Origin: an uncultured Eubacterium sp.
GTDB lineage: Bacteria > Bacillota > Clostridia > Oscillospirales > CAG-272
Direction of reading: 5' to 3'
Assembly: GCA_900544285.1 (NCBI GenBank)
Contig: UQUT01000001.1
Span: 59,004-123,003 of the forward strand
DNA: 64,000 nt
Part shown: positions 4,669-64,000 of the stretch, piece after piece
Layout: each line of letters begins with the position of its first letter
Numbering within the stretch: the first letter of the stretch is position 1
Program-made: the position numbers and the translations under genes
Notes under the pieces: model-generated
Told to the model about the DNA's origin: nothing
The model's database searches: none
Seen by the model: the letters and a program-made list of their open reading frames with translations, nothing else

Positions 4669-4688
4669 ATACATATATTTTCTTTAAT

Positions 4689-47280: not shown

Positions 47281-48108
47281 TTACCTCTCTTTCGGTTTTT
47301 CAGATTTCACAGGTTGGGGAGGCTGCGCCTGCCCCTGCGGTTGCGATTTCAGGGATTCCTCTTTGGAACTTTCCGGCTCGGTGCGCTCGGCCTGTTTTTC
47401 AGCCTTTGCCGCCGCCTTGTATCGGTTCAGGTTTTCTTTGACCGAAGATCTCACTCGGGAAACCCTGAGCCTGTCGGCTGTATCCATCGCCTTTTGTTCC
47501 AAAGAAGCAAAGCCCTTCTGCACTTTCTCGAATACACGGCTGAGTCTTGATAAAATGCCTTTATCGGTTCTGGCGTGTTCCGCTTGCTTTGCGGCTCTCC
47601 CGGTAAACAGAAGCCCCACATTTTTCAAATGCCCCTTTGCGCTTTGCAGTTCTGAGTGCATAGAGGACAACTTTGCCGTATCCTGCGCCATCTCCTGAGA
47701 CAGCCTGCGGAACAAAGAGGACAGCTTATCAAACATTTCGGGGATTTTCATCGCTCTGACCGATCCGGCAAGAGCGTCTTTGCCTTTCTCCCGGAATGCC
47801 CGCATTGCGTCCCCGGCAGATTTGATGAGATTATCCTTCATCGTCTTGACGGCGGTAAAGCCCTGACGAACTTTATCCTCTGTTTTCTGAACAAGGGTTT
47901 GGCACTTGCTGCGTAGGGTGCTGTTGTGAATCAAATTGATTTCCCGGCGCATATCCTGAAGCTCACCGAGCATTCCTGAAAGTGTTGCCTGCATATCGCC
48001 TATATACCCAACGAGCGACTGCACTTCGCTTTTCTCTCTCGTCAGGCCGTTTTTTTCAAGGGTATCCAACAACTCCGCAATTTGCGGGTGTTCATTGAGA
48101 TTATCCAT
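47281..48108 (-). CDS. coiled-coil hypothetical protein with a conserved C-terminal tail shared with the next gene
   Basis: 275 aa. The tail reads SVKENLNRYKAAAKAEKQAERTEPE...KPKER. Confidence 0.45.
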   Translation of the reverse strand: MDNLNEHPQIAELLDTLEKNGLTREKSEVQSLVGYIGDMQATLSGMLGELQDMRREINLIHNSTLRSKCQTLVQKTEDKVRQGFTAVKTMKDNLIKSAGDAMRAFREKGKDALAGSVRAMKIPEMFDKLSSLFRRLSQEMAQDTAKLSSMHSELQSAKGHLKNVGLLFTGRAAKQAEHARTDKGILSRLSRVFEKVQKGFASLEQKAMDTADRLRVSRVRSSVKENLNRYKAAAKAEKQAERTEPESSKEESLKSQPQGQAQPPQPVKSEKPKER

Positions 48109-48966: not shown

Positions 48967-50290
48967 TTACTTGCTCGAGATTGTGTTCGACAACTTTTGA
49001 TCGCTCTGCAATCCCGTCGCAAAGCTTCACTTCCTTGCGAAGCTCTTTGAGTCGTTCGGAAAGCGCCGAGATTTCTCCTTTCGCCTTAGACAGCTCACCG
49101 TCGGTGATGTTTACTTTTCGTATTTCATTTCGGAGGCGGTTTCTTCCGGCGGTTCGGGATTTAATCTCTGCTTCAACCGAGTGCTTATATGCGAAAAGCT
49201 GCTCGTCCGTACTGATTTGGTGCTTGCCGAGCAGCCTGACTTGCTGTGAGAACTGTTCAAGCTTCATCAAATCGTCTTTGAGAAGATAATGAAGCCGTGC
49301 GGGGTTCTGTTGTTTTTGGTTGTACTTTGGAAGATAACCGAGCCGGTAGCAGTAGTGGAGGTACAGGCCGTAAAGACCGCCCACCTTTTTGATTTTCTGT
49401 TCCCTTGTCGGGAGGCGGTACTGCCGGACACGATAGGTTTTCGGTTGAAAAGGGTGAAAAGCGATATTATCCCGGTTCTGTATGAGTCGTTCAAGGATTC
49501 GCTCTTTGGTATATTCCTCTCCGAGCCGATAGGTGCGGATTGGTTTTTCATCGCCCTTTGGGGTGACGGTGCAGTATTTCCGGTTCGGGTTGAAATTGGA
49601 ACGATAGCCCATCACGCCGAGTTCATATTGGAACTGCCGCAGGTTATGGCTCATCGCTATTGCTTCATCAATCGCTTTTCTGGCGTTGTTGTACCGGGTG
49701 GGCATACCCGCCTCGTCCTTTTTGGTAAGATAGGCGGGGGATCTGTGCAGTTCGGGATTTTTAACGATGGAAAGCTTATGCGAAAGGCAAATCTCATCAG
49801 CAATATGCCGGAAGTAGTACCAAGATTTCTCCTTGTTTTGCAGACGCTTCCCATCAACGAAGGAAACGGAATTGATAACGAAATGGCAGTGGAGGTGCTT
49901 TGTGTTCAAATGGGTGGTTACGACCACCTGAAAGCGGCTGCCCCACATCTTATTTGCAAACTCCATTCCGATCTGCTGCGCCTGTTCAGGTGTGACTTCA
50001 TCTTCCTTAAAACTCAGATACCCGTGATAGGCTTGAATCCCGTCCGGTTTTTCAAACTGTTCCTTGACTGAAATGAACTGGTCACGGGCGGTGGCCACAT
50101 TACAGTTGATCCCTTCGCTGAAAAATTCGTGTTCGGTTTTTTCTTCGTCCTTTGCGTAGGCAAGCACATCTTTGAGCGCCTGATATTCTTCGGGCGTGTA
50201 TTCGGGATTGGCGGTCTTTTCGGGATTTGTCGCATAGTCGAGAACCTGCCCGAGCCGTTCTGTTACCTTCCAAAGCTTTGTTACTGCCAT
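48908..50290 (-). CDS. relaxase / mobilization nuclease (MobA/MobL, MOB_P-type)
   Basis: The histidine triad reads HLNTKHLHCHFVINSV. Length is 460 aa. It lies immediately downstream of mobC. Confidence 0.8.
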   Translation of the reverse strand: MAVTKLWKVTERLGQVLDYATNPEKTANPEYTPEEYQALKDVLAYAKDEEKTEHEFFSEGINCNVATARDQFISVKEQFEKPDGIQAYHGYLSFKEDEVTPEQAQQIGMEFANKMWGSRFQVVVTTHLNTKHLHCHFVINSVSFVDGKRLQNKEKSWYYFRHIADEICLSHKLSIVKNPELHRSPAYLTKKDEAGMPTRYNNARKAIDEAIAMSHNLRQFQYELGVMGYRSNFNPNRKYCTVTPKGDEKPIRTYRLGEEYTKERILERLIQNRDNIAFHPFQPKTYRVRQYRLPTREQKIKKVGGLYGLYLHYCYRLGYLPKYNQKQQNPARLHYLLKDDLMKLEQFSQQVRLLGKHQISTDEQLFAYKHSVEAEIKSRTAGRNRLRNEIRKVNITDGELSKAKGEISALSERLKELRKEVKLCDGIAERSKVVEHNLEQVIAEEEKSQRKESRNYGKRR

Positions 50291-50622
50291 TTCAAATCGC
50301 TTTTTTCAGGACGGAGGAATACCCGTTCCACATCAGCCTGAAATTTATGCCAACGGAGGGCTTCGGCTTTTAACATCTGCGTGTCGATGAAGCCGAGAGC
50401 GTTTGCTTTAATGGCAAGCTGATTGATATTGTTGCCGATAGCGGAGAGTTCCCGCATAGCGTCGTAGAACCTCTCGTCCGGTTTCTCTCTCGGCTCATAT
50501 CCACGAATGAGCAGACGGACGAGCGCCGCTTCGGTCAGGCAGGCTTTCTTTGCTTTCTTCTGCAAATCCTGAGCCTCCTGACGGTTCATCAAAAAATGCT
50601 TCTCGATATTTCTTCTGTTCAA
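50281..50622 (-). CDS. mobC: MobC relaxosome accessory protein
   Basis: LSAIGNNINQLAIKANALG is the canonical MobC motif. Confidence 0.75.
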   Translation of the reverse strand: MNRRNIEKHFLMNRQEAQDLQKKAKKACLTEAALVRLLIRGYEPREKPDERFYDAMRELSAIGNNINQLAIKANALGFIDTQMLKAEALRWHKFQADVERVFLRPEKSDLKWQ

Positions 50623-50751: not shown

Positions 50752-50888
50752 GTAAAAATCCTTTCTGAAATGGGGGTATTAGGGGCAAGCCCCTAACGAG
50801 TTTTACTGTTTTGGACGAACCTGTCCATAAACAGTCTGCTCGCTAAGATAATGCAGTTCCTCCGGGCTGCCCCGCATACCCCTGAAAT
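50752..50888. promoter_or_regulatory. candidate oriT / promoter region upstream of mobC and the relaxase
   Basis: A perfect palindrome GGGGCAAGCCCC lies at 50783-50794. An additional imperfect inverted repeat, ccgggctgccccg, is present in this region. This is the usual oriT position for MobC-MobA modules. Confidence 0.3.
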
Positions 50889-51953
50889 TTATCGTTCTCT
50901 ATCTGCCTTTTCGGGCTTGATTGGTTCGATTTTTATGCCGTAATCGGTTTCAATGAACCTTTCCGGCTGACGGAAAAGCCTCTGATATTTGAGGGCTTGT
51001 TCAGGGGTTAAGCTGTCGTATTTTTCATCGGCTACATTGGATCGGGCAATAAAAAAGTCCCCGTGAACAATGTCGGAGACTTCTCGTGGATCTGTAATAA
51101 TGAAGCATTTTTCAATTTTCCAACCGTCCTTGCCGCCCTTTTCGTCCGCCATAAGACCTTCCATTCGCAGGCAGCGGTCAACCCCGTCAAGGGAAGCGCC
51201 GTAGATAGAATACCCGTTCATATTGGGCTGAAACGCCTTATTATCCGAGCTGACTTCATAGGTTCGTTCAAACTCGCTGTGGGGTGTGCGGAAGGTATCG
51301 ACGGTAAAAACAATGTGTCCCTTGCAGTGATGGCCTTCCCGTTCCATCTGCCGGAAGTGGTTTTTCAACCCCTCATAGTCCACTTCATATTTCTGCGGTT
51401 CTGCATAAACGGCACGGTTTTTCGGCAAATCATTCTGCTTTCCGTCCCGGTTGCAGACGATGGCGGCGTCATCTTCAAAGGGCATATACTCATCAAGACC
51501 GCCGCCGACCAGTTCTTTCATCGCCTCATAGGTGTTGGGGATCTCCATAACAACCGGGGCTTTACCAACCGGAACAAAGAGAACGGAAATGGTTTCTTCC
51601 TTTGTCAAGCAGGAAAAGCGCTCGCTGATTTTGCATTTCTCCGGTTCAAAATCCACCTTCCTAAACTCGAAGGAATCGCAAAAATGAAATTCGCTTTCTC
51701 CATTCTCTGCAATCACTTCCACCACATCGGATACCGAAAGGGAACGGGCTTTATACCCTTTGGGGTGGTTTTGGTTGAATTTTTGATAGACATCTTCAAG
51801 GGTTTTGCAGTTGACGTCCCCCTCGAAAACCTTGTCGTAAACGCTGCTGTTGATCTGATTGCTGCCCTGAAATTTCGGCAGACTCTCATATCTCATAAAG
51901 GCGATGTTCTTGGTATCACGGTCGGTATTAACCTGATAGATTCGTATTTTCAT
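50889..51953 (-). CDS. YodL-like/DUF3846-type conjugative element protein
   Basis: The N-terminus MKIRIYQVNTDRDTKNIAFMRYESL resembles the YodL-like domain seen in Firmicutes ICEs. Confidence 0.4.
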   Translation of the reverse strand: MKIRIYQVNTDRDTKNIAFMRYESLPKFQGSNQINSSVYDKVFEGDVNCKTLEDVYQKFNQNHPKGYKARSLSVSDVVEVIAENGESEFHFCDSFEFRKVDFEPEKCKISERFSCLTKEETISVLFVPVGKAPVVMEIPNTYEAMKELVGGGLDEYMPFEDDAAIVCNRDGKQNDLPKNRAVYAEPQKYEVDYEGLKNHFRQMEREGHHCKGHIVFTVDTFRTPHSEFERTYEVSSDNKAFQPNMNGYSIYGASLDGVDRCLRMEGLMADEKGGKDGWKIEKCFIITDPREVSDIVHGDFFIARSNVADEKYDSLTPEQALKYQRLFRQPERFIETDYGIKIEPIKPEKADRER

Positions 51954-52915
51954 CGCTCAAAACTCCTCTCTTTGGATTTGTGAATACCCATCTGAATACA
52001 AAGAAAATCATTGTAGTCGTTGCCTTTGGGCGGCGGCTCGTCAATGATTTCATACTTTCCCGGCAGAATTGCTTTTAACGCTGCGGTCGCTTTTCTGCCC
52101 GTATTGTCGTTGTCAAAATGGATATGAATTTTCTTGATATGCGGTCTTTCCGCAAGGTATCGGACGAGGGCGGCGGGGGTAGTGCTTTCCTCGATTTTCT
52201 CTTTCGGGAGGTACACCCCGGCGAGCGATACAAGGTTTTCCTTGTGCCAATCCCTGCCGGAGAGCCGTGCAAGCGTAGCGTAGGAGAGCAGGTCGATGGC
52301 GCACTCAAACAGGTGTACTTCTTCGCTTTCGCTCTCGGCTATCCGAAAAGAATAGTGCTTGTCGCTGCCGGAACAATCCCCTAAAATGCGGCGGCTTCCG
52401 GTCGCCCGGTATGCGGCATATCTCGGTTTCTGCTTCTCATCAAAGCCGACAAACACAAGGTTATGATAGGGCAGACTCTCAAAAATCAAGCCCCGGTCAA
52501 TGCACTCGCCTATGATGGAATAGTCAATGCCCCTGCCAAAAAGGTACTCGGTAATTCTATCGTTGGAAGCACTTTTTTCAGGCAGAAGCAAGACCTTCGG
52601 CTTTTCTTCCTGTTTCGGTCTGACCGTCAGGGAGGGCATAACCGCCGCCTTGCCCATCAGGGTTTCTACCGCTTCTACAAACGAACAGCCCTTTACCTTA
52701 ACGAGATAATCAAGGGCGTTGTAGCCGCCGATCCGCCGTGACCACCACATCCATTTCCCGTTTGAAATCTTCAAGCTGTCGTGGGTGCGGGTGGTATAGT
52801 TGTTGCCGGAAATCCGCACAAGCTCGTGGGGTTCAAAGGCTTGCAGGTAAGTCAAAAGGTCAATCTGCCGAGCCTGTTCGATCACCTCCGGTTCGATATA
52901 TGGCAAGAAAATCAC
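51950..52915 (-). CDS. Toprim-domain primase-like protein (DUF3991/Toprim)
   Basis: The C-terminal Toprim reads IHIHFDNDNTGRKA...DYNDFL. Length is 321 aa. Confidence 0.6.
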   Translation of the reverse strand: MIFLPYIEPEVIEQARQIDLLTYLQAFEPHELVRISGNNYTTRTHDSLKISNGKWMWWSRRIGGYNALDYLVKVKGCSFVEAVETLMGKAAVMPSLTVRPKQEEKPKVLLLPEKSASNDRITEYLFGRGIDYSIIGECIDRGLIFESLPYHNLVFVGFDEKQKPRYAAYRATGSRRILGDCSGSDKHYSFRIAESESEEVHLFECAIDLLSYATLARLSGRDWHKENLVSLAGVYLPKEKIEESTTPAALVRYLAERPHIKKIHIHFDNDNTGRKATAALKAILPGKYEIIDEPPPKGNDYNDFLCIQMGIHKSKERSFER

Positions 52916-53241
52916 CTGCTTTCCCGGTTCTTTTCTCGCTTGATGACATCATTTGCCCGTGTTTCAATGGAATCTCTGACAGTATCCATATGCTCGACTT
53001 CTCTGTCCTTGAACTCCTTATACACATCGTCAAGAGGGCAAGGCGACCGGAGCAAAGCTTTCGCCTGTTTGGGGGTAAGTTCCAGTTCCTCCATTGCCAT
53101 CACAATATCCTCCCGCATTGTATATTCATAGGTGTGGTTCAAAATTTCAGAAGGCGGCTGATTCAAAAGCCAATCCCTGTATTTGTCCTGTTCGGCTCTC
53201 ATTTTCTCATAGAGAAGGGTATTATAATCGGTTTCGCCCAT
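52912..53241 (-). CDS. hypothetical protein
   Basis: 109 aa. Its stop overlaps the Toprim gene start. Confidence 0.35.
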   Translation of the reverse strand: MGETDYNTLLYEKMRAEQDKYRDWLLNQPPSEILNHTYEYTMREDIVMAMEELELTPKQAKALLRSPCPLDDVYKEFKDREVEHMDTVRDSIETRANDVIKREKNRESR

Positions 53242-53348: not shown

Positions 53349-53810
53349 TTATGCTTTTTTTCGTGTTTTCCAAGTCTGATAAAGAATATCTTTCAGCACT
53401 AACATTGCGTCCTGCTCATTAAACTGATATTCCGTTTTCAGTTCATTGAGCATTAAATTGATTCGCCGTGCATAGTCGGGAACATTGACCTCCTGCTGAT
53501 ATTGAAGCAAAACCGGGTACTTTTTTCCCCAAGCCGAAGTCCAGTCAATCCTTTCTTCTATCTTTTCATCGGTCTTTTCAATAATCTCCTGTATTTCGCT
53601 GAGTTCCACATCAAACTCTATCAAATCGTCTAAGGCGATATGATAGAGCTTTGCCATCTTCTTCGATTGATAAATATCGGGTACGGTTTCATTAGTTTCC
53701 CATTTAGAAATGGTCTGTCGGCTCACCCCAAGTTTTTCAGCAACTTCCTCTTGCGATAAACCGCATTTCTTTCGTGCGTGAAATAGACTATTGCCTAAAT
53801 TCATTCTCAA
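53349..53810 (-). CDS. XRE-family HTH transcriptional regulator
   Basis: The HTH reads LSQEEVAEKLGVSRQTISKWETNETVP. Confidence 0.7.
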   Translation of the reverse strand: MRMNLGNSLFHARKKCGLSQEEVAEKLGVSRQTISKWETNETVPDIYQSKKMAKLYHIALDDLIEFDVELSEIQEIIEKTDEKIEERIDWTSAWGKKYPVLLQYQQEVNVPDYARRINLMLNELKTEYQFNEQDAMLVLKDILYQTWKTRKKA

Positions 53811-54010: not shown

Positions 54011-55426
54011 TTATCGCTCATAAGACGGATCTTTGTGTTTTGTATTCGTGCGGGACGGTATCGAGAGCAGCTCTCTTGTGCGTTCTCCAAGCTGCTTTTC
54101 AATCGCCGCAAGCCTTTCTTCGGGCAGATTGAGCGAAGGGTGGCGGTGGAACCGGAAGCCCACCATCTTGCGAAGCTGCGCCTTCTGCCTTGCGCCCATC
54201 ACCTCTTTGCAGACCTCCTCATAGGAAATCCGGTAAGGGTTGGAACGGGTTTTAGCGTATTCTTTCAGCCCTTTGAAATCATCGGGCATAGCGAAATTGA
54301 ACAGCGACAATCCGTTGTCGAAAATGGGGGCGGGGGCGATAATCTCCCCGGTGTGGTTATCCCGGAGAACGCCGAAGTTCCCGAAATGTCTGTCCTCATT
54401 ATAGATGAGGGCGTCGAAAACAAGCATACTGCAAAGCTGCTCATAGAAATCATCACCCAAAGTTTTGTAGTAATCCAAACAGCTTTTCAGCGTGATTTTT
54501 TTCAGGATACGGCCAATGGGAACAAAGGAAACATTGATGTCCGTAAAGAGTTTACACTTGGAGGCGAGGATACCTTTCCAATTCTCCAAATCATATTCGA
54601 CGTAATTTAAGCCCATTGTTTTTGCAACCTGACAGGCATAGTATTCGCTGTAAGGCTCGTTTCCGGTATTTGCCGCACCCTCCGTTCCGCCTTTATACAA
54701 ATAAATACTGTCGCCCTCAACAAACCGCCAAGCCTTCCTCAGCATACCGTTTGTAGTCAGCTCGGGAGAGGTCGAAAAGGCTTCGTTGCTTCCACCGATT
54801 CCTGTATAGGCGACCAAAGACAGCGCTTCGGAAAAGCGGTTTTCATATAGGTTATACTCGGCAAATTTACCCGCAAAATCGGCGGGTACTACCCAATAGC
54901 TGTCGTTGAGCGACAGCCCCATACATACGTCGATAATCCCTTTGGTATTGTTCACGCTGAGTCCCAATGTTTTCAAGATTTCATCGACGAACTGACGGTT
55001 TTTGGGGATTACCCGTTTTTCAAGCCACTTCACAATTCCCTCATCGGTCAGTTCCAAATCAAGGGGAAACAAGTGATTGTTTTCGGTATCCGCAGATAGA
55101 ATATTCGCCTGTAAGCCCTCCAATCCCCGTTCTTCGAGGGAGAAGGTAATCAAATCTTCGTCATAAAGGCGAAGGGAATAAATGTTGGTCATTGTCTGAT
55201 TCCTTTCTTCCAATAGGATATTCAAATCCTTGCCGAGCGCTTCGGCAATCCGTATCATCATATCGAGGGAGAGATTCTGAGCGCCGCTTTCTATGCGGCA
55301 GATGTTGGATCTCTGCGTCCCAATCAGGCGTGCAAGTTGCGCCTGCGACAGCCCTTTTTCAAGCCGTGCCTGCGTCAATTTTTGAATTACACTCTGCCGG
55401 GAAGCCAATAAATCTTTCTCCGTCAC
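54011..55426 (-). CDS. HipA-like Ser/Thr kinase with a fused N-terminal XRE HTH (YjjJ/HipH-like architecture)
   Basis: The N-terminus reads LSQAQLARLIGTQRSNICRIESG. The catalytic core reads VFDALIYNEDRHFGNFGVL, a HipA D-x-H-x-x-N loop. Confidence 0.65.
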   Translation of the reverse strand: MTEKDLLASRQSVIQKLTQARLEKGLSQAQLARLIGTQRSNICRIESGAQNLSLDMMIRIAEALGKDLNILLEERNQTMTNIYSLRLYDEDLITFSLEERGLEGLQANILSADTENNHLFPLDLELTDEGIVKWLEKRVIPKNRQFVDEILKTLGLSVNNTKGIIDVCMGLSLNDSYWVVPADFAGKFAEYNLYENRFSEALSLVAYTGIGGSNEAFSTSPELTTNGMLRKAWRFVEGDSIYLYKGGTEGAANTGNEPYSEYYACQVAKTMGLNYVEYDLENWKGILASKCKLFTDINVSFVPIGRILKKITLKSCLDYYKTLGDDFYEQLCSMLVFDALIYNEDRHFGNFGVLRDNHTGEIIAPAPIFDNGLSLFNFAMPDDFKGLKEYAKTRSNPYRISYEEVCKEVMGARQKAQLRKMVGFRFHRHPSLNLPEERLAAIEKQLGERTRELLSIPSRTNTKHKDPSYER

Positions 55427-55495: not shown

Positions 55496-58400
55496 TTATC
55501 GCTCGTAGGCTTTTTCCCTGCGTTCCGGCGCTTCGTCGCCCTCGTCAAGTTCGCCGTCTACAAGCTCATTCCCACGCTTGTCTACATTGAGCAATCCGTT
55601 TAATACATTCAAACGCTCTGTTTTTTCGGTCAGTTCCGGCTCCTTATCAAAGGGTTTTTCAACCTCTATTTTTGCGGTAGCAAGCTGCTTTTCGGTGGTT
55701 TCAAGTTCCTGCTTTTCCATTTCCAACAATTCGGGGATTTTTTCAATAACATTGTCGATTCGGGTGATATTGCCGATGGCGTCTGTACCCAAAGACACGC
55801 TGCGGGATACGCTGCCCTTGATTTTCACCTGATACACTTTCTGGAAAGGTTCAAACGAGAGTTCCAAATCAAACCCCCTGTACCTGCCGAGAGAAACCGG
55901 ATCAGGCGAAGTCATTTCACCGCACGAGTCTATGATTTTCTTTCCCGCTTCCGCCTTTTCAGAATAAGAAACACCCTTTACCTCCATACCGACAAAGCGG
56001 TCATCGGTAGGTTTCGGGTGTTCGCTTGCCCTGCGAATATCGCTCTCCAGACCGGAAATCATTTCCTTCGCCCGAGCAATCTGCTTCGGGTAATATTTGA
56101 TGATTTTATCCTCCAAAGCGTATTTTTCAGTCAGATAGTTGGATTTTAAGAGCCTGAGCTTCTGCACCTGAATATCCAAATCCATCTTTTCTTTGATATA
56201 TGGGTTTCCGGTTGAAAGCATTTTCAGCTCTGCATAGGAGAGCGCCGTTTCGTCTATATCCTCGCAAGACCGGACGGGGGATTTACCCGTCATAATCTGC
56301 GAAGCAAATTTCTGCTTGCCCTCTACAAGCTGCCAACAATATGCGTCAAAGGTTTCCTCCGTCACATATCGGTAAAGGCCAACTTTTGAGTTTTCGTTGC
56401 CCTGCCGCACCGTTCTGCCTGCCCGCTGTTCCAGATCCGAAGGCCGCCACGGGCAGTCAAGATCGTGGGAAGCAATCAGCTTATTTTGAACATTGGTGCC
56501 TGCGCCCATCTTCTGCGTGGAACCGAGAAGGATTCGCACTTCGCCCCGGCGAACCTTTTTGAATAGTTCCTGTTTCTTCACTTCGGTATCTGCCTCGTGA
56601 ATAAACTTGATTTCTGATTCGGGGATACCACGCCCGATGAGCTTTTTGCGAATATCCGTGTAGACCGAAAATTCACTTTCACCCTTTGGGGTGGAAAGGT
56701 CGCAAAAGAGAAGCTGCGTAGATTTTTTATCAGCAGTTTCTTCCCAAATGTGGTAGACCTCCTGCACACAGGCATTGACTTTGCTGCCCTCTTCATCGGG
56801 CAGTAAGGGGTTCATCATTCTCTGATCGAGGGCAAGCTTTCTGCCGTCGTTGGTCACTTTGAGCATATTGTCAACGCTTGCATTTACCCCGCCGTCCCGT
56901 ATTTTTTCAGCCCGTTCCGCAAGGGAGGCAACCATATCCTTTTGAATTTGAGAGGGCTTGACGGCGATGTTGTGGTATTCCACTTCCGGCACGGGCAAAT
57001 GAAGCATATCCGCCGTTTGAATGTCCGCAACCTCTTTGAACATTGCCATCAGCTCGGGGAGATTGTTAAATCTTGCAAAGCGTGTCTTTGCCCGGTATCC
57101 TGTTCCTTCAGGGGTTAATTCCACGGCTGTAACGGTTTCACCGAAGCTGGAAGCCCACGAATCAAAATGCTGTAAATCGTGTTCTTGCAGGGTTCGATAC
57201 TGCAAATAGCGCTGAATGGTATAGAGTTCTACCATACTGTTTGAAATCGGCGTACCTGTCGCAAAGACTGTGCCACGTCCTCCGGTGATCTCGTCCAAGT
57301 AGCGGCACTTCATAAATAAGTCGCTCGATTTTTGTGCCTCCGTCTGAGCAATACCGCCCACATTTCTCATTTTCGTATAGAGAAACAGGTTCTTGTAATA
57401 GTGGCTCTCGTCGATGAAAATACGGTCAACGCCGAGTTCTTCAAAGGTAACTACATCATCCTTTCTCGATTGGTCGTTTAGTTTTTCCAGTTTTACGGTA
57501 AGGGATTTCTTGGTCTTTTCAAGCTGTTTGACCGAGAACCTGCTGCCCTTATTCCGCTTTATATCCGTAATCCCGGCGACAATATCGTCAAGCTGCTGCT
57601 GTAAAACGGCTCTTTGCCGTTCTATGCTCATCGGGATTTTTTCAAATTGGCTGTGTCCGATGATAATTGCGTCGTAGTCGCCCGTGGCGATTCTGCCGCA
57701 AAACCGTTTGCGGTTTTTCATCTCAAAATCTTTTTTCGTTGCTACTAAAATATTGGCGGCAGGATAGAGCTGCAAGAACTCCGCCGCCCATTGTTCGGTC
57801 AGGTGGTTGGGTACGACAAAAAGGGATTTGCTGCAAAGCCCCAACCGTTTGGATTCCATAGCGGCGGCGGTCATTTCAAAGGTTTTGCCTGCGCCAACGG
57901 CGTGTGCCAAAAGGGTATTACCGCCGTAAAGGATATGGGCAACCGCATTTTTCTGATGTTCCCTGAGTGTGATTTCGGGGTTCATTCCGGTAAAAGCAAT
58001 ATGGCTTCCGTCATACTCACGGGGACGGATGGAATTGAATTTGTCGTTGTAGAGCCGCACAAGCTTTTCCCGCCTTGTGGGATCACGCCATATCCAATCC
58101 TGAAAGCCCTGCTTGATGAGTTCCTGCTTCGATTGAGCGATAGCCGTTTCTTTTTTATTGAGAACCGCTTTCTTTTTGCCCTCATCGTCCTCGATATAAT
58201 CGAAAACACGGACGTCCTTCATATTCAGCGTTTCTTCAATGATTTTGTAGGCGTTGACTCGCTGTGTTCCATAGGTGTTGTAGGCTTTCAGGTTGCTTCG
58301 GTCGGAAGATTTTCCTTCGACATTCCATTCACCCGTCAGCTTGGAGTAGTGAACCTTGATGTTCCACCTTGCATAAACAGGGGTATCCAAAAACTCGTAG

Positions 58401-61400
58401 ATGAATTTCTGCACGATTTCTTCGGGCAGCCAAGTTGTGCCGAGCTGCACGAAAATCTCACTTGCGGTCAAGTCCCTCGGCTGTACTTTTTCAAGCGCCT
58501 CCACATTGACCGTGTAATCTTCGGGGTAGACTTCGGCGGATTTTCTCGCCCACGCAAGTTTCTGGCGCACATTCCCGGAGAGGTACTCGTCCGCCATCAG
58601 GTACTTTTGCTCGTCGCTGTCTCCATAGCCATACATTGGATTTAAGAAGATAACGCCTTTCAAGTCCTGATAGATTTCCTGTTCGGTTTTGCCGGAGAGC
58701 GAACACATATATTCCATATCTACAAAGGCTTTTTCCGCCATAGACACGGCGAGCGCTTCGCTTGCGGTATCCACCGAAGTTATGGGAATGTGCGGTTTGA
58801 TCGTCCGCTTGGTAAAAATATCTGCCTTGCGTTCCAACTCTCCATCGTCGCCCAATATCTCGAGCGCCGAGAGCAAAGAGAACGAACCGTCCTGCGAAAA
58901 GGCAGAAACATTGGCTCGGCTGTTTATCAGCCCGTACTTTTTAGAAAAGGTATCATACAGGGTGTTGAGCTTCTGCTGTTCGGCTGTAATCTCCCCATCG
59001 GGGAAATCCAAAGTCTGAATTTCAATCAGGTTTCTCACACAATCCCGAATGGCAATCATACCCTTAATTCGATTTTCAGCCGTGGCGGAACATTCGACGG
59101 GAGTCATCCGGGAATTTTCACGGTAATAGATTTTATCGTCTACCACCGTGTAAGAAAAGTTGCGTACATTGGGATCTGCGGGAATGGAGGTATCTTCTTC
59201 CTCCAATTCTTCGTCTGCTTCGTACTCGGTTATCTCGGCGTGGATACCGGAAATCGCTTCTTCAAGCTGTTCTGCAAGGCCGGTATTCTCATAGGGTACG
59301 ACGGTATTTTCCTCGCCAAATCTGCCCGATACGGTTTTCCATTCGCCAAGCACCATTTCAGGGTGGTCTACAAAATAGGAGTTCATCTTCACACCGTTTT
59401 CATCGGTATTCAGATGTACCCACTCCGGCTCAATATCGATGAGCCTGTCCCTTTTTTGGAGAATGAGAATATCCGAAACAACCTCTGTTCCGGCGTTCCC
59501 CTTAAAGGTGTTGTTGGGCAAGCGAACCGCACCAAGCAGGTCAGCTCGCTGTGCAATATATTTTCGGATTGCGGGGTTTTCCTTATCCATTGTCCCCTTG
59601 CTCGTGATGAGCGCCATCACGCCGCCCGGCCTTAATTTGTCTAAGGATTTCGCAAAAAAGTAGTCGTGGATCAAAAAGTTGTGTTTGTTGTACCGCTTGT
59701 CGTTGATCCGAATATCTCCAAACGGCACGTTGCCGATTACAGCGTCGAAGAAGCTGTCGGGGATATTTGCTTCTTCAAAGGGCTGTGCCGCAATCGAGGT
59801 TTTCTGATAAAGCTGCTGAGCGATACCCGCCGAAATCTTGTCGATTTCCACGCCGTACATCTTAGCGTTTTGTATTGACTGCGGCAGCATACCGATAAAG
59901 TTGCCGATCCCGCAGGAAGGTTCTAAGATATTGCCCTCCCGAAAGCCCATCTGCTCCATCGCTTTGTAGATTGCGGAAATGACAACGGGCGGGGTGTAGA
60001 AAGCGGTCAGAACGCTGCCTTTGGCGCTTTCGTACTCGTCGGGGGATAGTGCCTGATACAGTTCGATAAACTCGTCCGCCCAAGAGGAATTGTTTTCATC
60101 AAAGGCTTCTGGAATACCGCCCCACCCTACATACTGCGATAGGATTTCCTGTTCTTCGGGGGTGGCGAAGCGGTTTTCAAACTCACACTCGTTCAGCACA
60201 TTGATTGCCGCCATATTTCTGCGGAACCGTTCTTTTTTCCCTGCTTCGGGTATTTCGTGGGAGGCAAGGTCAAAGGTGTGCCGCTCAGACATCGGGATTT
60301 CAGGGTGCAAATCAAAGGTCTGCACCCGTGAGCGTTTCGGCTGAGTAAAGGCCGGGGCAAGGGGTTTTTCTTCCGGTTGTTCAGGTGCGGGTGCTTCCTG
60401 TTTTGCCCGTTCCACATAGAGCCATTCGGCAGATTCCTTTTCTGAAACCTCTTTTTTCACCTGTTCCAGATAATCGTTTGCCTGCCATTCGCTCGTAAAT
60501 TCTTCGCTGACGCCCTCATCATCAACATAGATTTCTTCCCGTATATCGTCCCATACGGCATAGCCCTCATCAGTTTCGATGACGAAAAACCGTTCATAGG
60601 ATTCCACCGCACTTTCTGCGGCGATTTCCTCCGCCTGCCTGAGCATTTCATCTGCCCTGTCCTTTGCAAGATAGGGCGAATCAATGATTTCTATGCCCTG
60701 CGGCGGCGGATCAAGCTCGCCTATAAAATCCTGCGGTATGGTGTTCCCGTCTTTGTCTTTATACAGAACGAGGGTGAAGGGAACGCCGTAAAAATTCTCC
60801 TCCTTAACATCTTTTTCAAGCTGATATGGGCTTGTGTACTCAATGCTCTCCCGCACCGAACCGTCGGTGTGGAGATAGTCGATCCTGCCGATTGGCTGCG
60901 ACTGTACCGGATCTTCCTTATTGGTCGAGACGATATTTCGGGTAATGCGCTCTCCGTTTTCCAAAGAGCAGACCGCCACATCAAAGCCCCGGTCGAGCAG
61001 CATATTGGTATAGGTTTGCAGGCTGTGGGCAGGCAGGCCGCACATCGGCACACGATGTTCCTCACCGAAACGGCGGGTAGTCAGGGTAAGGCCGAGTGCT
61101 TCCGATACTTGATTGGCGTCCTCCTCAAACGCTTCATAGAAATTGCCAAGCTGAAACAGAACAATGCTGCCGGGGTTTTCGCCCTTTGCGTCAAGGTAAT
61201 CCTGCCAGATAGCAGTAACGGCGCTGTCCTCCTGCGAAATGGCAGAAGGGATATGGCCATTCTTTTCCTGCTCGGCGGCCCGTTCAATCCGGGCAATCAC
61301 ATCTTCGGGCAGATTCTCCACATAGTAGTGAATTTCCCCTTCGGGGCTGATATGGGCGATATTCTGATAATCGCCGTTTACTTCAACGGCTCGGTTCCAA

Positions 61401-64000
61401 ACGGTAAGCCCGTTGCCGAGATACCCCATTCCAATGTCGTATGATCCTTTTTCTTCGGGATTTGCGTTGAAATCTTCCTCTGTGCTTTCCAAGCCAAGAT
61501 ATTCACTGAGTCCAGCTTCTTGAATTGCGTTCACATAGTCGTCTTTGAGAATAGAATCCTCTGTAACAACCGCCAAGACTTTGCTTGCCCTATCATCTTC
61601 AAACGAATAGTGAGGGCTGATACTGCGGGAAGTCACATAGAACTTTTTGATATTGCCGTCGTAATCCTTTACGGCCTGCTGAAAGTCCCGCAGATCTTCC
61701 ACCGTGAAAATGCCCTGTGTTACCCAATACACTTCGCTGCCGTTTACAATGTCGGCTTCTTTGAAGCGCATATGATGGGGAATGCGTTTTTCAAATTCAA
61801 CGGCGCTGAACAGGGGTTCCGGTGTTTCTTCTGTTTTTTCTTCGGGTGGTAATTCCTTGACCTTCAAGTGGTCGTTCATCGGGTTTTCCTGCACCCTGCG
61901 GTCAAACTCGCCCCGTTCTATTTCTTTTTGAAATAAGGGGAACTGCGTATCGAACAGCATTACCCGGTTTTCGTCAAAGGAGAGGATTTCATATTCGTCC
62001 GCACCCATATATACCGTATCGCCAAGATGATATACATAGCGGTCGGTTGCAACGGGTTCAGCCTCTAAGCCGCCCGTCATCTGCGCTTCATAGCGGTCAA
62101 TATCATGCTCGGTTATCCATTCTGGTTTCTCTGGCAGAAGGGCATACAGTTCCCGCATTTTAGCAATCTGCTGTTCGACATTTTCCGCCCACAAATGCTT
62201 TTCTGCACGGTTGCCGTTCCCTAAGAAATACTCGCAGTCCGAGCGCAGACGGGAGAGCAGGCGATATTCGTTTTCAAAGTTTTGCACGGCGGGTTCTTCC
62301 TCTTGCGGCGGCGCAGCCGAGAGGATTTCCCGGTTTTTTCGTTCTTCGGCAAGCTCGGCACGACGTTCTTCCTGCTTTTGCAGCCAAGAGGGGTAAACCT
62401 CTTTTTCTTTCGGGTTGAGATAACGGTCAAGGCGGATCAGTTCAGCAATCCGCTTTTCAACCTGATTCCAAGTCAGATTGATATGCGGTTTCTCAGCGCC
62501 AATCCCTTTTGAAATGCGAATCCCTTTCCCGTCGTGCTGTTCATCAATGCCTGCGCCGACAATTACGGGGTAGGAACCGCCCCAACCGTATTCCTCTTTG
62601 AGAAAATCGGCATTTTCCTTTGCTGACAGGCTTTTTTCAAACCGTTCGTAAATCCTGAACTTGCCTTCGGATACGCCGCTTCCACGAGTGAGAACTGCGT
62701 CGATAATCTCCTGAGAAAAAGTAAAGGCGGAGGTTTTTTCCTCCGCCTGCGTTTCCAGTAGATTCATCTGCCCGCCGATTGAGGGCAGGGGTTTTTGTGT
62801 GTCCCGCAGCTCTCCGAGCAGCCGCATAGCTTCAAAATGTTGGGCAATCACGCCCCAATCATAAAAGCTCTGCGCCGTTCTGCTTAAATAGCTGCCTTCC
62901 CAAAGATGAAGCACATTCTGATAGGTTTTGTACCCCACACGCCGCCCGTCGTTCAATATTACTTCGGTATAGTCGTTGTTGAAAATACCCTTGATATATT
63001 CAGTACGGGCGGCATTGTCAGTGATACCCTCATAAAAAGCACGAATTTCATCTTTTGAAGCCTTCAAATGAGGGGTTGTGCCGAGAATTTCCCGAATGGT
63101 ATCGTCCCTGCCGAAAAACGGCAGGCTTTTATCCTCGTGTTCCCGGTCGTAGTAATCTAAGCGAAAATCACTTCCGCTTTCACGATCTCCTGCACCCGGT
63201 TCCGAAGATTGTTCATTCCCTGCACCCATTTCATCGTATCCGCCGCTTTCAGGCTCTCGGTCAAGCCCTCCTGCGCCGCCATTTTCTTCAACAGGGATTC
63301 CTCCATCTGGAGAGCCGTCTGTTCGGTCTGCACCAGATGTGCGGTCAGGGTGCAGCTCGTCAGAAGATTGTAATAGAGGATTCGGTGCTGTTCTTTCAGG
63401 TATTTCTTCCTCATCTGAGCGTACCTGCCCATCGTCACCTCCGGCTGTTCGGGCATTGTCAGGTCGGGAAGATTGTAGTCTCCCTGCATTGTATAGGTCA
63501 GTTCGGCCATCGTCAAAACTCCTTTCACTTTTCTTTTCAGCTATATTGTAATCGGCTCTGCCGTTTCCTGCAATTATGCGATTTTGCTTATCGAGAGCGA
63601 GAACAGTGCGGGAGATTTCACTAAGCCCCATCTCCGCAATATCGCTCGTGGCAAAGCCGAGGGCATTCAAGGTTTCGGACGTGTTGAACTGCGACACGCC
63701 TGCAAAAAAACCGGAGGGATAGATCTCCGAAGTGTCAATCCCCAAACGGGACATCATCATATATGCGATACTGTGGGTAACAAGTTCTTCATAAAGTTGC
63801 CCGGATTCTTCGGCGGAGAGATAGGCAATATCGCTGTCGCCGCCGATCTGCATAAAGTCTTGCAGATAATCGGGCAGGTTATCTTCGGCTGCGTTTTTAG
63901 CAGCGGAGAGGACGGCGCTTTTCAGATCGTCCTTGTTTTCCAACTCACCGAAGGTATTTTCAAGGGTATCAATGACCTCCTGCTCATACTCCGGTTTCAT
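55496..64000 (-). CDS. giant multidomain protein (>2834 aa, 5' end beyond the window): N6-adenine DNA methyltransferase + SNF2/DEAH helicase + MutS-domain-I-like segment. It is ICE anti-restriction/SNF2-methylase-like.
   Basis: MTase motif I reads EPSCGIGNFIG (~59890-59940) and motif IV reads GNVPFG (~59711-59735). The helicase Walker A reads LLAHAVGAGKTFE (~57880), the DEAH box reads FIDESHYYKN (~57395), and the helicase-C region reads ASHDLDCPWRPSDLEQRAGRTVRQGN. The MutS_I-like segment reads LGNFYEAFEEDANQVSEALGLTLTTR...PMCGLPAHSL...VAVC (~60940-61170). Confidence 0.85.
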   Translation of the reverse strand: MKPEYEQEVIDTLENTFGELENKDDLKSAVLSAAKNAAEDNLPDYLQDFMQIGGDSDIAYLSAEESGQLYEELVTHSIAYMMMSRLGIDTSEIYPSGFFAGVSQFNTSETLNALGFATSDIAEMGLSEISRTVLALDKQNRIIAGNGRADYNIAEKKSERSFDDGRTDLYNAGRLQSSRPDNARTAGGDDGQVRSDEEEIPERTAPNPLLQSSDELHPDRTSGADRTDGSPDGGIPVEENGGAGGLDREPESGGYDEMGAGNEQSSEPGAGDRESGSDFRLDYYDREHEDKSLPFFGRDDTIREILGTTPHLKASKDEIRAFYEGITDNAARTEYIKGIFNNDYTEVILNDGRRVGYKTYQNVLHLWEGSYLSRTAQSFYDWGVIAQHFEAMRLLGELRDTQKPLPSIGGQMNLLETQAEEKTSAFTFSQEIIDAVLTRGSGVSEGKFRIYERFEKSLSAKENADFLKEEYGWGGSYPVIVGAGIDEQHDGKGIRISKGIGAEKPHINLTWNQVEKRIAELIRLDRYLNPKEKEVYPSWLQKQEERRAELAEERKNREILSAAPPQEEEPAVQNFENEYRLLSRLRSDCEYFLGNGNRAEKHLWAENVEQQIAKMRELYALLPEKPEWITEHDIDRYEAQMTGGLEAEPVATDRYVYHLGDTVYMGADEYEILSFDENRVMLFDTQFPLFQKEIERGEFDRRVQENPMNDHLKVKELPPEEKTEETPEPLFSAVEFEKRIPHHMRFKEADIVNGSEVYWVTQGIFTVEDLRDFQQAVKDYDGNIKKFYVTSRSISPHYSFEDDRASKVLAVVTEDSILKDDYVNAIQEAGLSEYLGLESTEEDFNANPEEKGSYDIGMGYLGNGLTVWNRAVEVNGDYQNIAHISPEGEIHYYVENLPEDVIARIERAAEQEKNGHIPSAISQEDSAVTAIWQDYLDAKGENPGSIVLFQLGNFYEAFEEDANQVSEALGLTLTTRRFGEEHRVPMCGLPAHSLQTYTNMLLDRGFDVAVCSLENGERITRNIVSTNKEDPVQSQPIGRIDYLHTDGSVRESIEYTSPYQLEKDVKEENFYGVPFTLVLYKDKDGNTIPQDFIGELDPPPQGIEIIDSPYLAKDRADEMLRQAEEIAAESAVESYERFFVIETDEGYAVWDDIREEIYVDDEGVSEEFTSEWQANDYLEQVKKEVSEKESAEWLYVERAKQEAPAPEQPEEKPLAPAFTQPKRSRVQTFDLHPEIPMSERHTFDLASHEIPEAGKKERFRRNMAAINVLNECEFENRFATPEEQEILSQYVGWGGIPEAFDENNSSWADEFIELYQALSPDEYESAKGSVLTAFYTPPVVISAIYKAMEQMGFREGNILEPSCGIGNFIGMLPQSIQNAKMYGVEIDKISAGIAQQLYQKTSIAAQPFEEANIPDSFFDAVIGNVPFGDIRINDKRYNKHNFLIHDYFFAKSLDKLRPGGVMALITSKGTMDKENPAIRKYIAQRADLLGAVRLPNNTFKGNAGTEVVSDILILQKRDRLIDIEPEWVHLNTDENGVKMNSYFVDHPEMVLGEWKTVSGRFGEENTVVPYENTGLAEQLEEAISGIHAEITEYEADEELEEEDTSIPADPNVRNFSYTVVDDKIYYRENSRMTPVECSATAENRIKGMIAIRDCVRNLIEIQTLDFPDGEITAEQQKLNTLYDTFSKKYGLINSRANVSAFSQDGSFSLLSALEILGDDGELERKADIFTKRTIKPHIPITSVDTASEALAVSMAEKAFVDMEYMCSLSGKTEQEIYQDLKGVIFLNPMYGYGDSDEQKYLMADEYLSGNVRQKLAWARKSAEVYPEDYTVNVEALEKVQPRDLTASEIFVQLGTTWLPEEIVQKFIYEFLDTPVYARWNIKVHYSKLTGEWNVEGKSSDRSNLKAYNTYGTQRVNAYKIIEETLNMKDVRVFDYIEDDEGKKKAVLNKKETAIAQSKQELIKQGFQDWIWRDPTRREKLVRLYNDKFNSIRPREYDGSHIAFTGMNPEITLREHQKNAVAHILYGGNTLLAHAVGAGKTFEMTAAAMESKRLGLCSKSLFVVPNHLTEQWAAEFLQLYPAANILVATKKDFEMKNRKRFCGRIATGDYDAIIIGHSQFEKIPMSIERQRAVLQQQLDDIVAGITDIKRNKGSRFSVKQLEKTKKSLTVKLEKLNDQSRKDDVVTFEELGVDRIFIDESHYYKNLFLYTKMRNVGGIAQTEAQKSSDLFMKCRYLDEITGGRGTVFATGTPISNSMVELYTIQRYLQYRTLQEHDLQHFDSWASSFGETVTAVELTPEGTGYRAKTRFARFNNLPELMAMFKEVADIQTADMLHLPVPEVEYHNIAVKPSQIQKDMVASLAERAEKIRDGGVNASVDNMLKVTNDGRKLALDQRMMNPLLPDEEGSKVNACVQEVYHIWEETADKKSTQLLFCDLSTPKGESEFSVYTDIRKKLIGRGIPESEIKFIHEADTEVKKQELFKKVRRGEVRILLGSTQKMGAGTNVQNKLIASHDLDCPWRPSDLEQRAGRTVRQGNENSKVGLYRYVTEETFDAYCWQLVEGKQKFASQIMTGKSPVRSCEDIDETALSYAELKMLSTGNPYIKEKMDLDIQVQKLRLLKSNYLTEKYALEDKIIKYYPKQIARAKEMISGLESDIRRASEHPKPTDDRFVGMEVKGVSYSEKAEAGKKIIDSCGEMTSPDPVSLGRYRGFDLELSFEPFQKVYQVKIKGSVSRSVSLGTDAIGNITRIDNVIEKIPELLEMEKQELETTEKQLATAKIEVEKPFDKEPELTEKTERLNVLNGLLNVDKRGNELVDGELDEGDEAPERREKAYER

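What the first reader, a model, noticed from the sequence alone, without database searches (positions are those of the whole stretch)
55496..64000. Giant (>8.5 kb) ORF fusing N6-adenine MTase, SNF2 helicase and a MutS-domain-I-like module in the ICE leading region
Three modules are readable in sequence:
- N6-MTase motifs I and IV
- a full SNF2/DEAH helicase core
- a stretch (LGNFYEAFEEDANQVSEALGLTLTTR..PMCGLPAHSL..VAVC) that matches the signature of MutS N-terminal mismatch-recognition domain I (FYE.F..DA...L.L.LT.R......PM.G.P.......L...G..VA.C)

Large SNF2-methylase genes are known on Tn5252/ICESa2603-type elements as presumptive anti-restriction factors. A MutS-I-like DNA-recognition module inside one is not something I know to be described. 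It suggests mismatch or structure-directed targeting of the methylase-translocase. The gene is the first transcribed gene seen on the minus-strand ICE operon, and its 5' end lies beyond the window.
Basis: partly seen in the sequence, partly recalled or inferred. Interest (0 to 1): 0.7.

Follow-up and report, generated by a model that had tools for sequence, protein, structure and literature searches.

The report
ICE polyvalent anti-restriction protein with MutS-I
The giant gene is real and does contain a genuine MutS mismatch-recognition domain ahead of a DNA methylase-SNF2 motor, but this "polyvalent protein" layout on conjugative elements of gut Firmicutes was described in 2017, so it is an ordinary member of a known class.

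Summary
Observation confirmed. Window 55496-64000 (-) is one uninterrupted 2834-codon frame. It contains:
- LPD11, residues 576-641
- one MutS domain I, residues 922-1032 (Pfam E 1.3e-21; model matches Taq and E. coli MutS domain I), with the Phe-x-Glu mismatch wedge intact (F954, E956)
- a gamma-class N6-adenine MTase with intact motifs
- an SNF2-type ATPase

The C-terminal 1630 residues match "DarB-like antirestriction" (PHROG E = 0) and phage P1 DarB directly.

The gene is cut by the window edge. All 40+ homologues whose 5' end is on the contig have about 113 more N-terminal residues forming an ArdC-N-like header.

The gene lies in a Clostridia-type ICE, on the side of the relaxase operon expected to be the leading region.

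The novelty claim fails. Iyer et al. [quoted passage not shown]

Small additions from this work:
- MutS-I sits in a swappable central cassette, present in 17 of 51 related loci.
- Phe-x-Glu is kept in all 18 copies.
- Some metagenomic relatives carry tandem MutS-I copies of which only one keeps the motif.

No experiment addresses what the module does. Interest is low.

The parts
55496..64000 (-). Giant polyvalent-protein gene: 2834 codons plus stop in the window. The 5' end, about 113 codons encoding an ArdC-N-like header, lies beyond the window edge.
   Evidence: Searches show the open frame. It aligns over residues 1-2834 with the 3010-aa L002 protein at 77% identity. Homologues start 113 codons upstream.
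62393..62704 (-). Residues 433-536: conserved module of unknown function that contains an EEYGWGGS motif.
   Evidence: phrog_38613, E 2.1e-10. Motif position.
62078..62275 (-). LPD11 (large polyvalent-protein-associated domain 11), residues 576-641.
   Evidence: Pfam PF18824, E 2.2e-29, covering 2-69 of 69 profile positions. Also phrog_15551.
60374..61825 (-). Variable central cassette, residues about 726-1209. It is present, replaced or deleted among homologues, and it carries the MutS-I module.
   Evidence: BLASTP coverage map of 51 related loci.
60905..61237 (-). Single MutS domain I module, residues 922-1032.
   Evidence: Pfam MutS_I E 1.3e-21. NCBIfam MutS E 4e-25. PDB MutS E 1.4e-14. Family HMM E 7e-50, one copy only. 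AF2 model at pLDDT 85 matches Taq and E. coli MutS domain I, Foldseek E 6e-10, TMq 0.74.
61133..61141 (-). Phe-x-Glu mismatch-wedge motif (F954-Y955-E956 within GNFYEAF).
   Evidence: Aligned to the F-Y-E of GDFYELF in E. coli MutS. F-x-E is present in 18 of 18 family copies. In alignment A3 the Glu is invariant and the Phe is at least 90% conserved.
59990..60127 (-). LPD36-like helical region with the GxGU motif (GWGG 1292-1295) and the TP motif (FYTP 1334-1337), preceding the MTase core.
   Evidence: Motifs read from the sequence. They match the LPD36 and TP-motif description in PMC5512222. No profile test was available.
59441..60064 (-). Gamma-class N6-adenine DNA methyltransferase, residues about 1313-1520. 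Motif I is EPSCGIGNF (1360-1368) and motif IV is NVPF (1424-1427).
   Evidence: Pfam Eco57I E 3.8e-7. PADLOC MTase_II hits. Motif IV is conserved in 38 of 38 long homologues.
56285..57973 (-). SNF2-type SF2 ATPase, residues about 2010-2572. Walker A is GAGKT (2036), motif II is DESH (2197) and motif VI is QRAGRTVRQG (2525).
   Evidence: Pfam ResIII, SNF2-rel_dom and Helicase_C. Motif positions and conservation.
55544..60427 (-). DarB-like antirestriction super-module, residues 1192-2819: LPD36-like region, MTase, SNF2 and a C-terminal helical tail.
   Evidence: phrog_10089 'DarB-like antirestriction', E 0, 1618 bits. tblastn gives 38% identity over 95% to annotated DarB-like phage proteins, and hits P1 darB at E 3e-23.

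Best explanation
This is a conjugative-element 'polyvalent protein' in the sense of Iyer et al. 2017. It is one giant modular polypeptide made by a Clostridia-type ICE to protect its DNA on entering a new host.

Proposed mechanism:
1. The protein is either produced very early in the recipient from the leading side of the element, or carried in with the transferred strand. (Inferred.)
2. Its DNA-binding modules dock it onto the incoming element DNA. These are an ArdC-N-like ssDNA-binding header, just outside the window, and the MutS-I module with an intact Phe-x-Glu wedge. Likely docking sites are single-stranded stretches and irregular duplex such as unpaired or mispaired bases, hairpins and ss/ds junctions. 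(Inferred from homology.)
3. The DarB-like module then acts on that DNA. The SNF2 motor translocates along the DNA and the fused gamma-class N6-adenine methylase modifies it in cis. This shields it from host restriction, as shown genetically for phage P1 DarB against type I enzymes. (Homology is shown here; activity is inferred.)

MutS-I is an optional targeting accessory. It is not part of a mismatch-repair machine.
For: - Domain content: LPD11, MutS_I, N6-MTase, SNF2 and Helicase_C.
- DarB-like match: E 0 over residues 1192-2819, plus a direct hit to P1 darB and to annotated DarB-like phage proteins.
- MTase and ATPase catalytic motifs are intact and conserved in 37-38 of 38 long homologues.
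- MutS-I has the fold and the Phe-x-Glu motif. The motif is kept in 18 of 18 family copies.
- The ArdC-N-like header is present in every homologue whose 5' end is on the contig. It is linked by hhalign (96%, E 5e-9) to a window ORF with a borderline Pfam ArdcN hit.
- ICE context: tyrosine integrase, VirB4-like ATPase, PrgI, coupling protein, relaxase, MobC/NikA, YodL, Toprim.
- The gene lies upstream of, and is co-oriented towards, the mobC-relaxase junction. This fits the leading-region orientation rule (PMC11541004).
- The architecture and the proposed role are published (PMC5512222).
Against: - There are no experimental data for this protein or for any MutS-I-bearing polyvalent protein. None turned up in the papers retrieved by the related literature searches.
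- In MutS, isolated domain I binds DNA only as part of a dimeric clamp with domain IV. A lone domain I may therefore bind weakly or do something else.
- Two thirds of the related loci lack MutS-I, including about 20 complete proteins of 2559-2605 aa. It is therefore dispensable for the core function.
- oriT was not located, so the 'leading region' assignment is an inference.
- The ArdC-N assignment of the header is indirect. There was no direct Pfam or PDB hit.
- There is no evidence that the protein is a T4SS substrate.
Confidence: 0.7

Rival explanations
1. MutS-I acts as an anti-mismatch-repair decoy. It occupies mispairs or loops on incoming or recombining DNA so that host MutS-MutL cannot trigger anti-recombination or strand excision. 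The MTase-SNF2 part works independently.
For: The module is closest to genuine bacterial MutS domain I, at 40-50% identity to canonical MutS N-termini. It keeps the exact mismatch-contacting Phe-x-Glu in 18 of 18 copies.
Against: - The ICE integrates with a tyrosine integrase, so it does not depend on homeologous recombination.
- A single domain I lacks the clamp and ATPase domains that give MutS its affinity. No MutS_II-V hits were found.
- The module is optional in the family.
- No literature support was found.
Confidence: 0.1
2. The gene is a host-benefiting defence or exclusion factor carried as ICE cargo, working in a BREX-, DISARM- or type I/III R-M-like way. The MTase-SNF2 marks self DNA and helps attack incoming phages or rival elements.
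For: There are partial hits of the helicase C-lobe and the MTase to DrmD, BrxHI/II, PLD-helicase, DpdE and MAD2 models. Iyer et al. note that hosts may capture polyvalent proteins.
Against: - All defence-model hits cover only 70-200 residues and score far below the curated cutoffs, for example DrmD 36 bits against 610.
- No nuclease, PLD or other effector domain was detected.
- No partner defence genes lie next to it. Its downstream neighbours are an HTH/HipA_C-like ORF, a second HTH ORF, DUF3848, Toprim and YodL.
- The full-length best match is DarB-like antirestriction.
- LPD11 and the ArdC-N-like header are hallmarks of invader-side polyvalent proteins.
Confidence: 0.08
3. The MutS-I module is a structurally retained but functionally inert passenger or spacer within a recombining cassette, with no DNA-recognition role.
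For: It lies in the most variable part of the protein. It is absent from about two thirds of related loci, and those versions remain full-length.
Against: - Phe-x-Glu and other core residues are strictly kept wherever the module is present as a single copy. In alignment A3 the Glu, D, A, G, P and G columns are invariant.
- The module recurs independently in other polyvalent architectures, for example with MuF_C/LPD25/AAA_28, with DUF285, and as duplicates before an MTase-SNF2.
- Both points argue for selection on function.
Confidence: 0.07

Closest known systems
Polyvalent proteins of conjugative elements with ArdC-N, MutS-I and the LPD36-MTase-SWI2/SNF2 module (Iyer, Burroughs, Anand, de Souza, Aravind 2017, J Bacteriol, PMC5512222)
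   Same: - Giant multidomain polypeptide on a T4SS-bearing element of Firmicutes.
- Carries an LPD domain (LPD11) and an internal MutS-I.
- Has a gamma-class adenine MTase preceded by the GxGU and TP motifs and followed by an SNF2 ATPase.
- Homologues have an ArdC-N-like N-terminal header.
   Different: - No difference in kind.
- This lineage has no zincin MPTase domain.
- Its header is too divergent for a direct Pfam ArdcN hit.
- MutS-I is shown here to sit in an optional central cassette, with Phe-x-Glu always retained. I did not find these details stated in the paper's passages on MutS-I that I read.
Phage P1 DarB and 'DarB-like antirestriction' proteins of phages (phrog_10089)
   Same: - An N6-adenine MTase fused to an SF2/SNF2 ATPase with a long C-terminal tail.
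- Direct sequence homology: PHROG E 0, P1 darB E 3e-23, and 38% identity over 95% of the C-terminal 1643 residues (1192-2834) to Erwinia, Pseudomonas and Klebsiella phage proteins.
- Presumed cis-protection of incoming DNA from restriction.
   Different: - DarB is packaged in a phage head. This protein is on an ICE and carries about 1200 extra N-terminal residues (ArdC-N-like header, LPD11, MutS-I).
- P1 DarB itself is only about 27% identical, over the MTase and the first helicase lobe.
SNF2/COG4646 methylase-helicase genes of Tn5252/ICESa2603-family and Tn1549-related ICEs (e.g. PMC7168690)
   Same: A conserved, very large ICE gene encoding a putative adenine methylase plus helicase. It is found in Firmicutes ICEs.
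   Different: I could not fetch those sequences for a domain-by-domain comparison. The papers consulted describe them only as methylase plus helicase and do not mention MutS-I.
Bacterial MutS (mismatch-repair ATPase)
   Same: Domain I shows 28-35% structural-alignment identity and the same fold (TMq 0.74, rmsd 1.5 Å to Taq MutS). The Phe-x-Glu mismatch wedge is conserved.
   Different: There is no connector, core/lever, clamp or ABC ATPase domain (MutS_II-V). The domain is internal rather than N-terminal. The protein is not a MutS family member; only the domain is shared.

Membership tests
Polyvalent proteins of conjugative elements (Iyer et al. 2017) | Very large single polypeptide that combines several unrelated domains and is encoded by a phage or conjugative element | tested here: met
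   At least 2834 aa with LPD11, MutS_I, MTase and SNF2. It sits in an ICE with integrase, T4SS, coupling protein and relaxase.
Polyvalent proteins of conjugative elements (Iyer et al. 2017) | Presence of large-polyvalent-protein-associated (LPD) domains | tested here: met
   LPD11 (PF18824), E 2.2e-29, full profile length.
Polyvalent proteins of conjugative elements (Iyer et al. 2017) | N-terminal ArdC-N ssDNA-binding header, present in 93% of conjugative-type members | tested here: inconclusive
   The N-terminus lies outside the window. Homologues have a 113-aa header with no direct Pfam or PDB ArdC hit. The header is homologous (hhalign 96%, E 5e-9) to window ORF 46388-47275, which scores just below the Pfam ArdcN cutoff (21.9 against 22.6 bits).
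Polyvalent proteins of conjugative elements (Iyer et al. 2017) | LPD36 - EcoKI/TaqI-like adenine MTase - SWI2/SNF2 ATPase module | tested here: met
   The MTase and SNF2 profiles match. The GxGU motif (GWGG 1292), the TP motif (1336-1337) and an NPP(Y/F)-type motif (NVPF 1424) are in the described order. LPD36 itself was checked by motif only, not by profile.
DarB-like antirestriction proteins | Sequence homology to P1 DarB and DarB-like proteins across MTase and helicase | tested here: met
   phrog_10089, E 0, 1618 bits, residues 1192-2819. P1 darB E 3e-23, and annotated DarB-like phage proteins at 38% identity over 95%.
DarB-like antirestriction proteins | Intact catalytic motifs of the methylase and the ATPase | tested here: met
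   EPSCGIGNF, NVPF, GAGKT, DESH and QRAGRTVRQG are present. They are conserved in 37-38 of 38 long homologues, and motif VI in 29 of 38 by a strict regular expression.
DarB-like antirestriction proteins | Protects the co-delivered DNA in cis from type I restriction | not testable with these tools
   Requires conjugation assays into restricting recipients.
MutS mismatch-repair ATPases | Domain I with the Phe-x-Glu mismatch-binding motif | tested here: met
   Residues F954 and E956.
MutS mismatch-repair ATPases | Connector, lever, clamp and ABC ATPase domains (MutS_II to MutS_V) | tested here: not met
   No such Pfam or NCBIfam matches anywhere in the 2834 aa. The MutS equivalog models match only their own positions 2-85.
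DISARM / BREX / other SNF2-MTase defence systems | Full-length match to a defence-system component model, with partner genes nearby | tested here: not met
   Only 70-200-residue partial hits, far below the cutoffs. The downstream neighbours are an HTH/HipA_C-like ORF, a second HTH ORF and transfer or leading-type genes, not defence partners.

The most novel reading that the evidence does not exclude
The lone MutS-I module, with its strictly conserved Phe-x-Glu wedge, may be a real structure sensor. It would steer the DarB-like methylase-translocase to mispaired or extrahelical bases in folded regions of the incoming single strand, such as hairpin ssDNA promoters, ssi sites or primer-template junctions. 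Alternatively it could blind host MutS to them. The tandem MutS-I arrays seen in metagenomic relatives keep the motif in only one copy. They may mimic the asymmetric MutS dimer within one chain. Neither idea has been tested experimentally, and I did not find the second one in the passages of Iyer et al. 2017 that I read.
Probability: 0.15. Interest if true: 0.55.

Novelty: already known. Interest (0 to 1): 0.15.

Why it matters
This is mainly an annotation result. The giant ORF should be labelled a DarB-like polyvalent anti-restriction protein of a Clostridia ICE, not a new MutS-related system.

A modest open point remains. Nobody has tested what a free-standing MutS domain I does on an invading element. 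This family offers natural with-cassette and without-cassette variants, and a clear point-mutation target (F954 and E956). That makes the question experimentally approachable in gut Firmicutes ICEs.

Tried and rejected
- Word-index homologue search with the 128-aa MutS-I segment. It returned only 11 short, frameshifted fragments and was of little use for architecture.
- First AF2 run on residues 901-1080 with those fragments. pLDDT was 54, so it was discarded. A second run with a 36-sequence alignment gave pLDDT 85. That alignment includes genuine MutS N-terminal fragments, so the fold match is not fully independent of the sequence match.
- Direct identification of the upstream header as ArdC-N. 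Pfam at E up to 10 gave nothing. A profile search of the PDB gave only chance RAG1 and FOX hits. Only the indirect hhalign link held.
- PLSDB plasmids searched by tblastn with MutS-I. All listed hits were under 60% identity, and those with an annotated feature under the match were genuine mutS on chromids or mis-assigned replicons. No close plasmid counterpart was found.
- Search for a second, degenerate MutS-I copy in the window protein, using a family HMM with --max. None was found.
- Defence-system reading. PADLOC and NCBIfam gave only sub-threshold partial hits.
- Literature searches for experimental work on MutS domain I in conjugative elements (0 papers; only the comparative-genomics papers).
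- Comparison with the Tn5252/ICESa2603 SNF2 proteins at sequence level.
Full report

Yes. The minus-strand frame from 64000 down to the stop at 55496-55498 is open for 2834 codons.

Pfam finds the following:
- LPD11 at residues 576-641, E 2.2e-29
- MutS_I at 930-1017, E 1.3e-21, 77 bits against a cutoff of 20.6, profile positions 2-89 of 113
- an Eco57I-type N6-adenine MTase at 1397-1488
- ResIII and SNF2-related domains at 2010-2204
- Helicase_C at 2458-2534

The NCBIfam MutS equivalog models match only through their own first 85 positions (E 4e-25). The only solved structures that the whole protein hits by sequence are MutS proteins (E about 1e-12 to 1e-14). In the HMMER alignment, the F-Y-E of GNFYEAF lies on the F-Y-E of E. 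coli GDFYELF. These are the Phe-36 and Glu-38 mismatch-contacting residues (numbering from general knowledge of MutS).

A family-specific HMM delimits a single copy at residues 922-1032, which is nt 60905-61237. An AlphaFold2 model of 920-1037 with a 36-sequence alignment reached pLDDT 85 and pTM 0.77. Its best PDB matches are Taq and E. coli MutS domain I (Foldseek E 6e-10, TMq 0.74, rmsd 1.5 Å over 98 columns). One caveat applies: the alignment included real MutS fragments.

MTase motifs I (EPSCGIGNF, 1360) and IV (NVPF, 1424) are present. So are the helicase motifs GAGKT, DESH and QRAGRTVRQG. They are conserved in nearly all long homologues. The helicase motif II is DESH, not DEAH. The N-to-C order is LPD11, MutS-I, MTase, SNF2.

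**2. The true gene is longer.**

A scan of one genome per species found 51 related loci. Almost all are gut or rumen Clostridia, including Dorea, Ruminococcus, Roseburia, Lachnospiraceae and Oscillospiraceae.

In every locus that includes the 5' end, the frame continues about 113 codons upstream of the position equivalent to the window's first ATG. It starts MARKYDLISELY...QLL(I/V)(Y/F)AQRPDATAV...RWVNRGAKGIAVF. The window therefore cuts off the N-terminal domain.

That header gives no direct Pfam or PDB hit. Its profile does match window ORF 46388-47275 with hhalign probability 96%, E 5e-9. That ORF scores just under the Pfam ArdcN cutoff (E 2.2e-4). I call the header ArdC-N-like, as an inference.

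In three loci examined (L001, L002, L007), a co-directional ORF of 311-377 aa ends 15 nt before the start codon. The giant gene is therefore not the first gene of its transcription unit.

**3. Context.**

From about 34.2 kb to the window end, the DNA is an integrative conjugative element. Its genes are:

| Coordinates | Gene or domain |
|---|---|
| 34226-35356 | tyrosine integrase |
| 35537-37351 | CHAP hydrolase |
| 37700-38533 | sortase |
| 38530-39291 | orphan N6_N4 MTase |
| 39272-41611 | VirB4-like ATPase |
| 41608-41979 | PrgI |
| 44377-46185 | coupling protein |
| 46388-47275 | ArdC-N-like ORF |
| 47281-48108 | DUF6674 |
| 48115-48966 | DUF3801 |
| 48908-50290 | relaxase |
| 50281-50622 | NikA/MobC |
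| 50889-51953 | YodL/DUF3846 |
| 51950-52915 | DUF3991/Toprim |
| 52912-53241 | DUF3848 |
| 53349-53810 and 54011-55426 | two HTH proteins, the second carrying a HipA_C-like part |
| 55496-64000 | the giant gene |

Housekeeping-type genes lie to the left.

All the transfer genes and the giant gene are on the minus strand. If oriT lies, as is usual, just upstream of mobC, then the giant gene is on the leading side. There is a nested inverted repeat at 50752-50806. The gene would then be transcribed towards oriT. That is the orientation reported for leading-region anti-defence genes (PMC11541004). This is plausible, but it has not been demonstrated.

**4. What the protein is.**

The C-terminal 1630 residues match PHROG 10089, 'DarB-like antirestriction', with E 0 and 1618 bits. 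By tblastn, the C-terminal 1643 residues (1192-2834) show 38% identity over 95% of their length to annotated DarB-like proteins of Erwinia and Ochrobactrum phages and to unannotated counterparts in Pseudomonas and Klebsiella phages. They also hit phage P1 darB itself, E 3e-23.

Defence-system libraries give only short, sub-threshold hits to generic helicase and MTase parts.

Upstream of the MTase core are the GxGU motif (GWGG 1292-1295) and the TP motif (FYTP 1334-1337). Iyer et al. describe both for the LPD36-MTase module.

Together with LPD11 and the ArdC-N-like header, this is a textbook 'polyvalent protein' of a conjugative element.

**5. Is the MutS-I module new?**

No. [quoted passage not shown] In it they make these points:
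- It co-occurs with ArdC-N in about 80% of cases.
- It is the only occurrence of the domain outside MutS.
- It was probably derived from cellular MutS.
- It may recognise short ssDNA stretches of the replicating element soon after entry.

The same paper describes the MTase-SNF2-LPD36 module, with DarB as its archetype. A 2018 paper repeats the MutS-I point (PMC6222260). The large SNF2/COG4646 methylase-helicase gene is also a recognised conserved gene of Tn5252- and Tn1549-type ICEs (PMC7168690).

**6. What this analysis adds.**

- The family has a conserved N-terminal part (window residues 1 to about 725), a variable central cassette (about 726-1209) and a conserved DarB-like part (1210-2834). 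MutS-I lies in the cassette. It is present in 17 of 51 related loci. The common 2559-aa form lacks the cassette.
- Phe-x-Glu is retained in 18 of 18 copies of this family and in 42 of 57 copies found either internally or in multi-copy proteins among the best hits of a 1.84-billion-protein search. In that search, 9688 proteins match at E up to 1e-3. The top 50 or so are non-MutS proteins with the domain at internal positions.
- Several metagenomic relatives carry two or three tandem MutS-I copies in other polyvalent architectures: 2xMutS-I with N6_Mtase and SNF2, MuF_C with LPD25, 2xMutS-I and AAA_28, and DUF285 with 3xMutS-I. Often only one copy keeps Phe-x-Glu. This recalls the asymmetry of MutS dimers.

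These are incremental observations.

**7. Mechanism and rivals.**

- Best reading (confidence about 0.7): a DarB-like cis-acting anti-restriction methylase-translocase, tethered to the incoming DNA by the ArdC-N-like and MutS-I modules. Homology, intact motifs and context are shown here. Delivery, timing, DNA-structure preference and anti-restriction activity are inferred.
- Rivals: an anti-MMR decoy role for MutS-I (0.1), a captured defence or exclusion function (0.08), and an inert passenger module (0.07).

**8. Verdict.**

The interpretation as something undescribed is not. This is a known kind, with close homologues in dozens of public genomes. Interest is 0.15.

Noticed in passing
Proteins P0025, P0031, P0048, P0049, P0054, P0064 from the representative search (not in the window): Metagenomic non-MutS proteins carry 2-3 tandem MutS-I domains in varied polyvalent architectures, for example MuF_C with LPD25, 2xMutS-I and AAA_28, or DUF285 with 3xMutS-I. 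In several of them only one copy keeps Phe-x-Glu (FFE/SYE, TYQ/FYE, RCH/FYH/FYE). This recalls the asymmetric MutS dimer or MSH2-MSH6.
   Followed up: partly
window 54011-55426 (-): A 471-aa ORF directly downstream of the giant gene fuses an Xre-type HTH (E 1.5e-12) to a sub-threshold HipA_C-like kinase region (E 1.6e-5). It may be a toxin-antitoxin-like or regulatory kinase on the presumed leading side of the ICE.
   Followed up: no
window 46388-47275 (-): A stand-alone 295-aa ORF inside the transfer operon has a borderline ArdcN hit (21.9 bits against a 22.6 cutoff). It is homologous (hhalign 96%) to the N-terminal header of the giant protein's homologues, so the ICE appears to carry two ArdC-N-like modules.
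   Followed up: partly
window 38530-39291 (-): An orphan N6_N4 DNA methylase (E 7.8e-33) sits between the sortase and VirB4-like genes. It is a second methylase on the same ICE.
   Followed up: no
window 50752-50806: A nested inverted repeat lies in the gap between the YodL/DUF3846 gene and mobC. A 12-nt imperfect pair flanks a perfect TTAGGGGC/GCCCCTAA hairpin, with no T-run after it. It is a candidate oriT or regulatory hairpin. A small 43-codon hydrophobic ORF starts just after it.
   Followed up: partly
window 27783-33618 (-) and 13612-15033 (+): Left of the integrase lies a cluster of zinc-ribbon proteins, an SPFH/Band-7 protein with a GYF_2 domain and an NS-type endonuclease. Further left is a Schlafen AlbA_2 protein with a HATPase_c_4 domain. 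These may be defence-island-like cargo or chromosomal genes.
   Followed up: no
L001, L002, L007 about 2650-7650 (+): In homologous loci a roughly 1400-aa ORF and a 311-377-aa ORF without Pfam hits precede the polyvalent gene on the same strand. In L002 an ankyrin-repeat protein follows the gene, instead of the HTH/HipA-like gene seen in the window.
   Followed up: no
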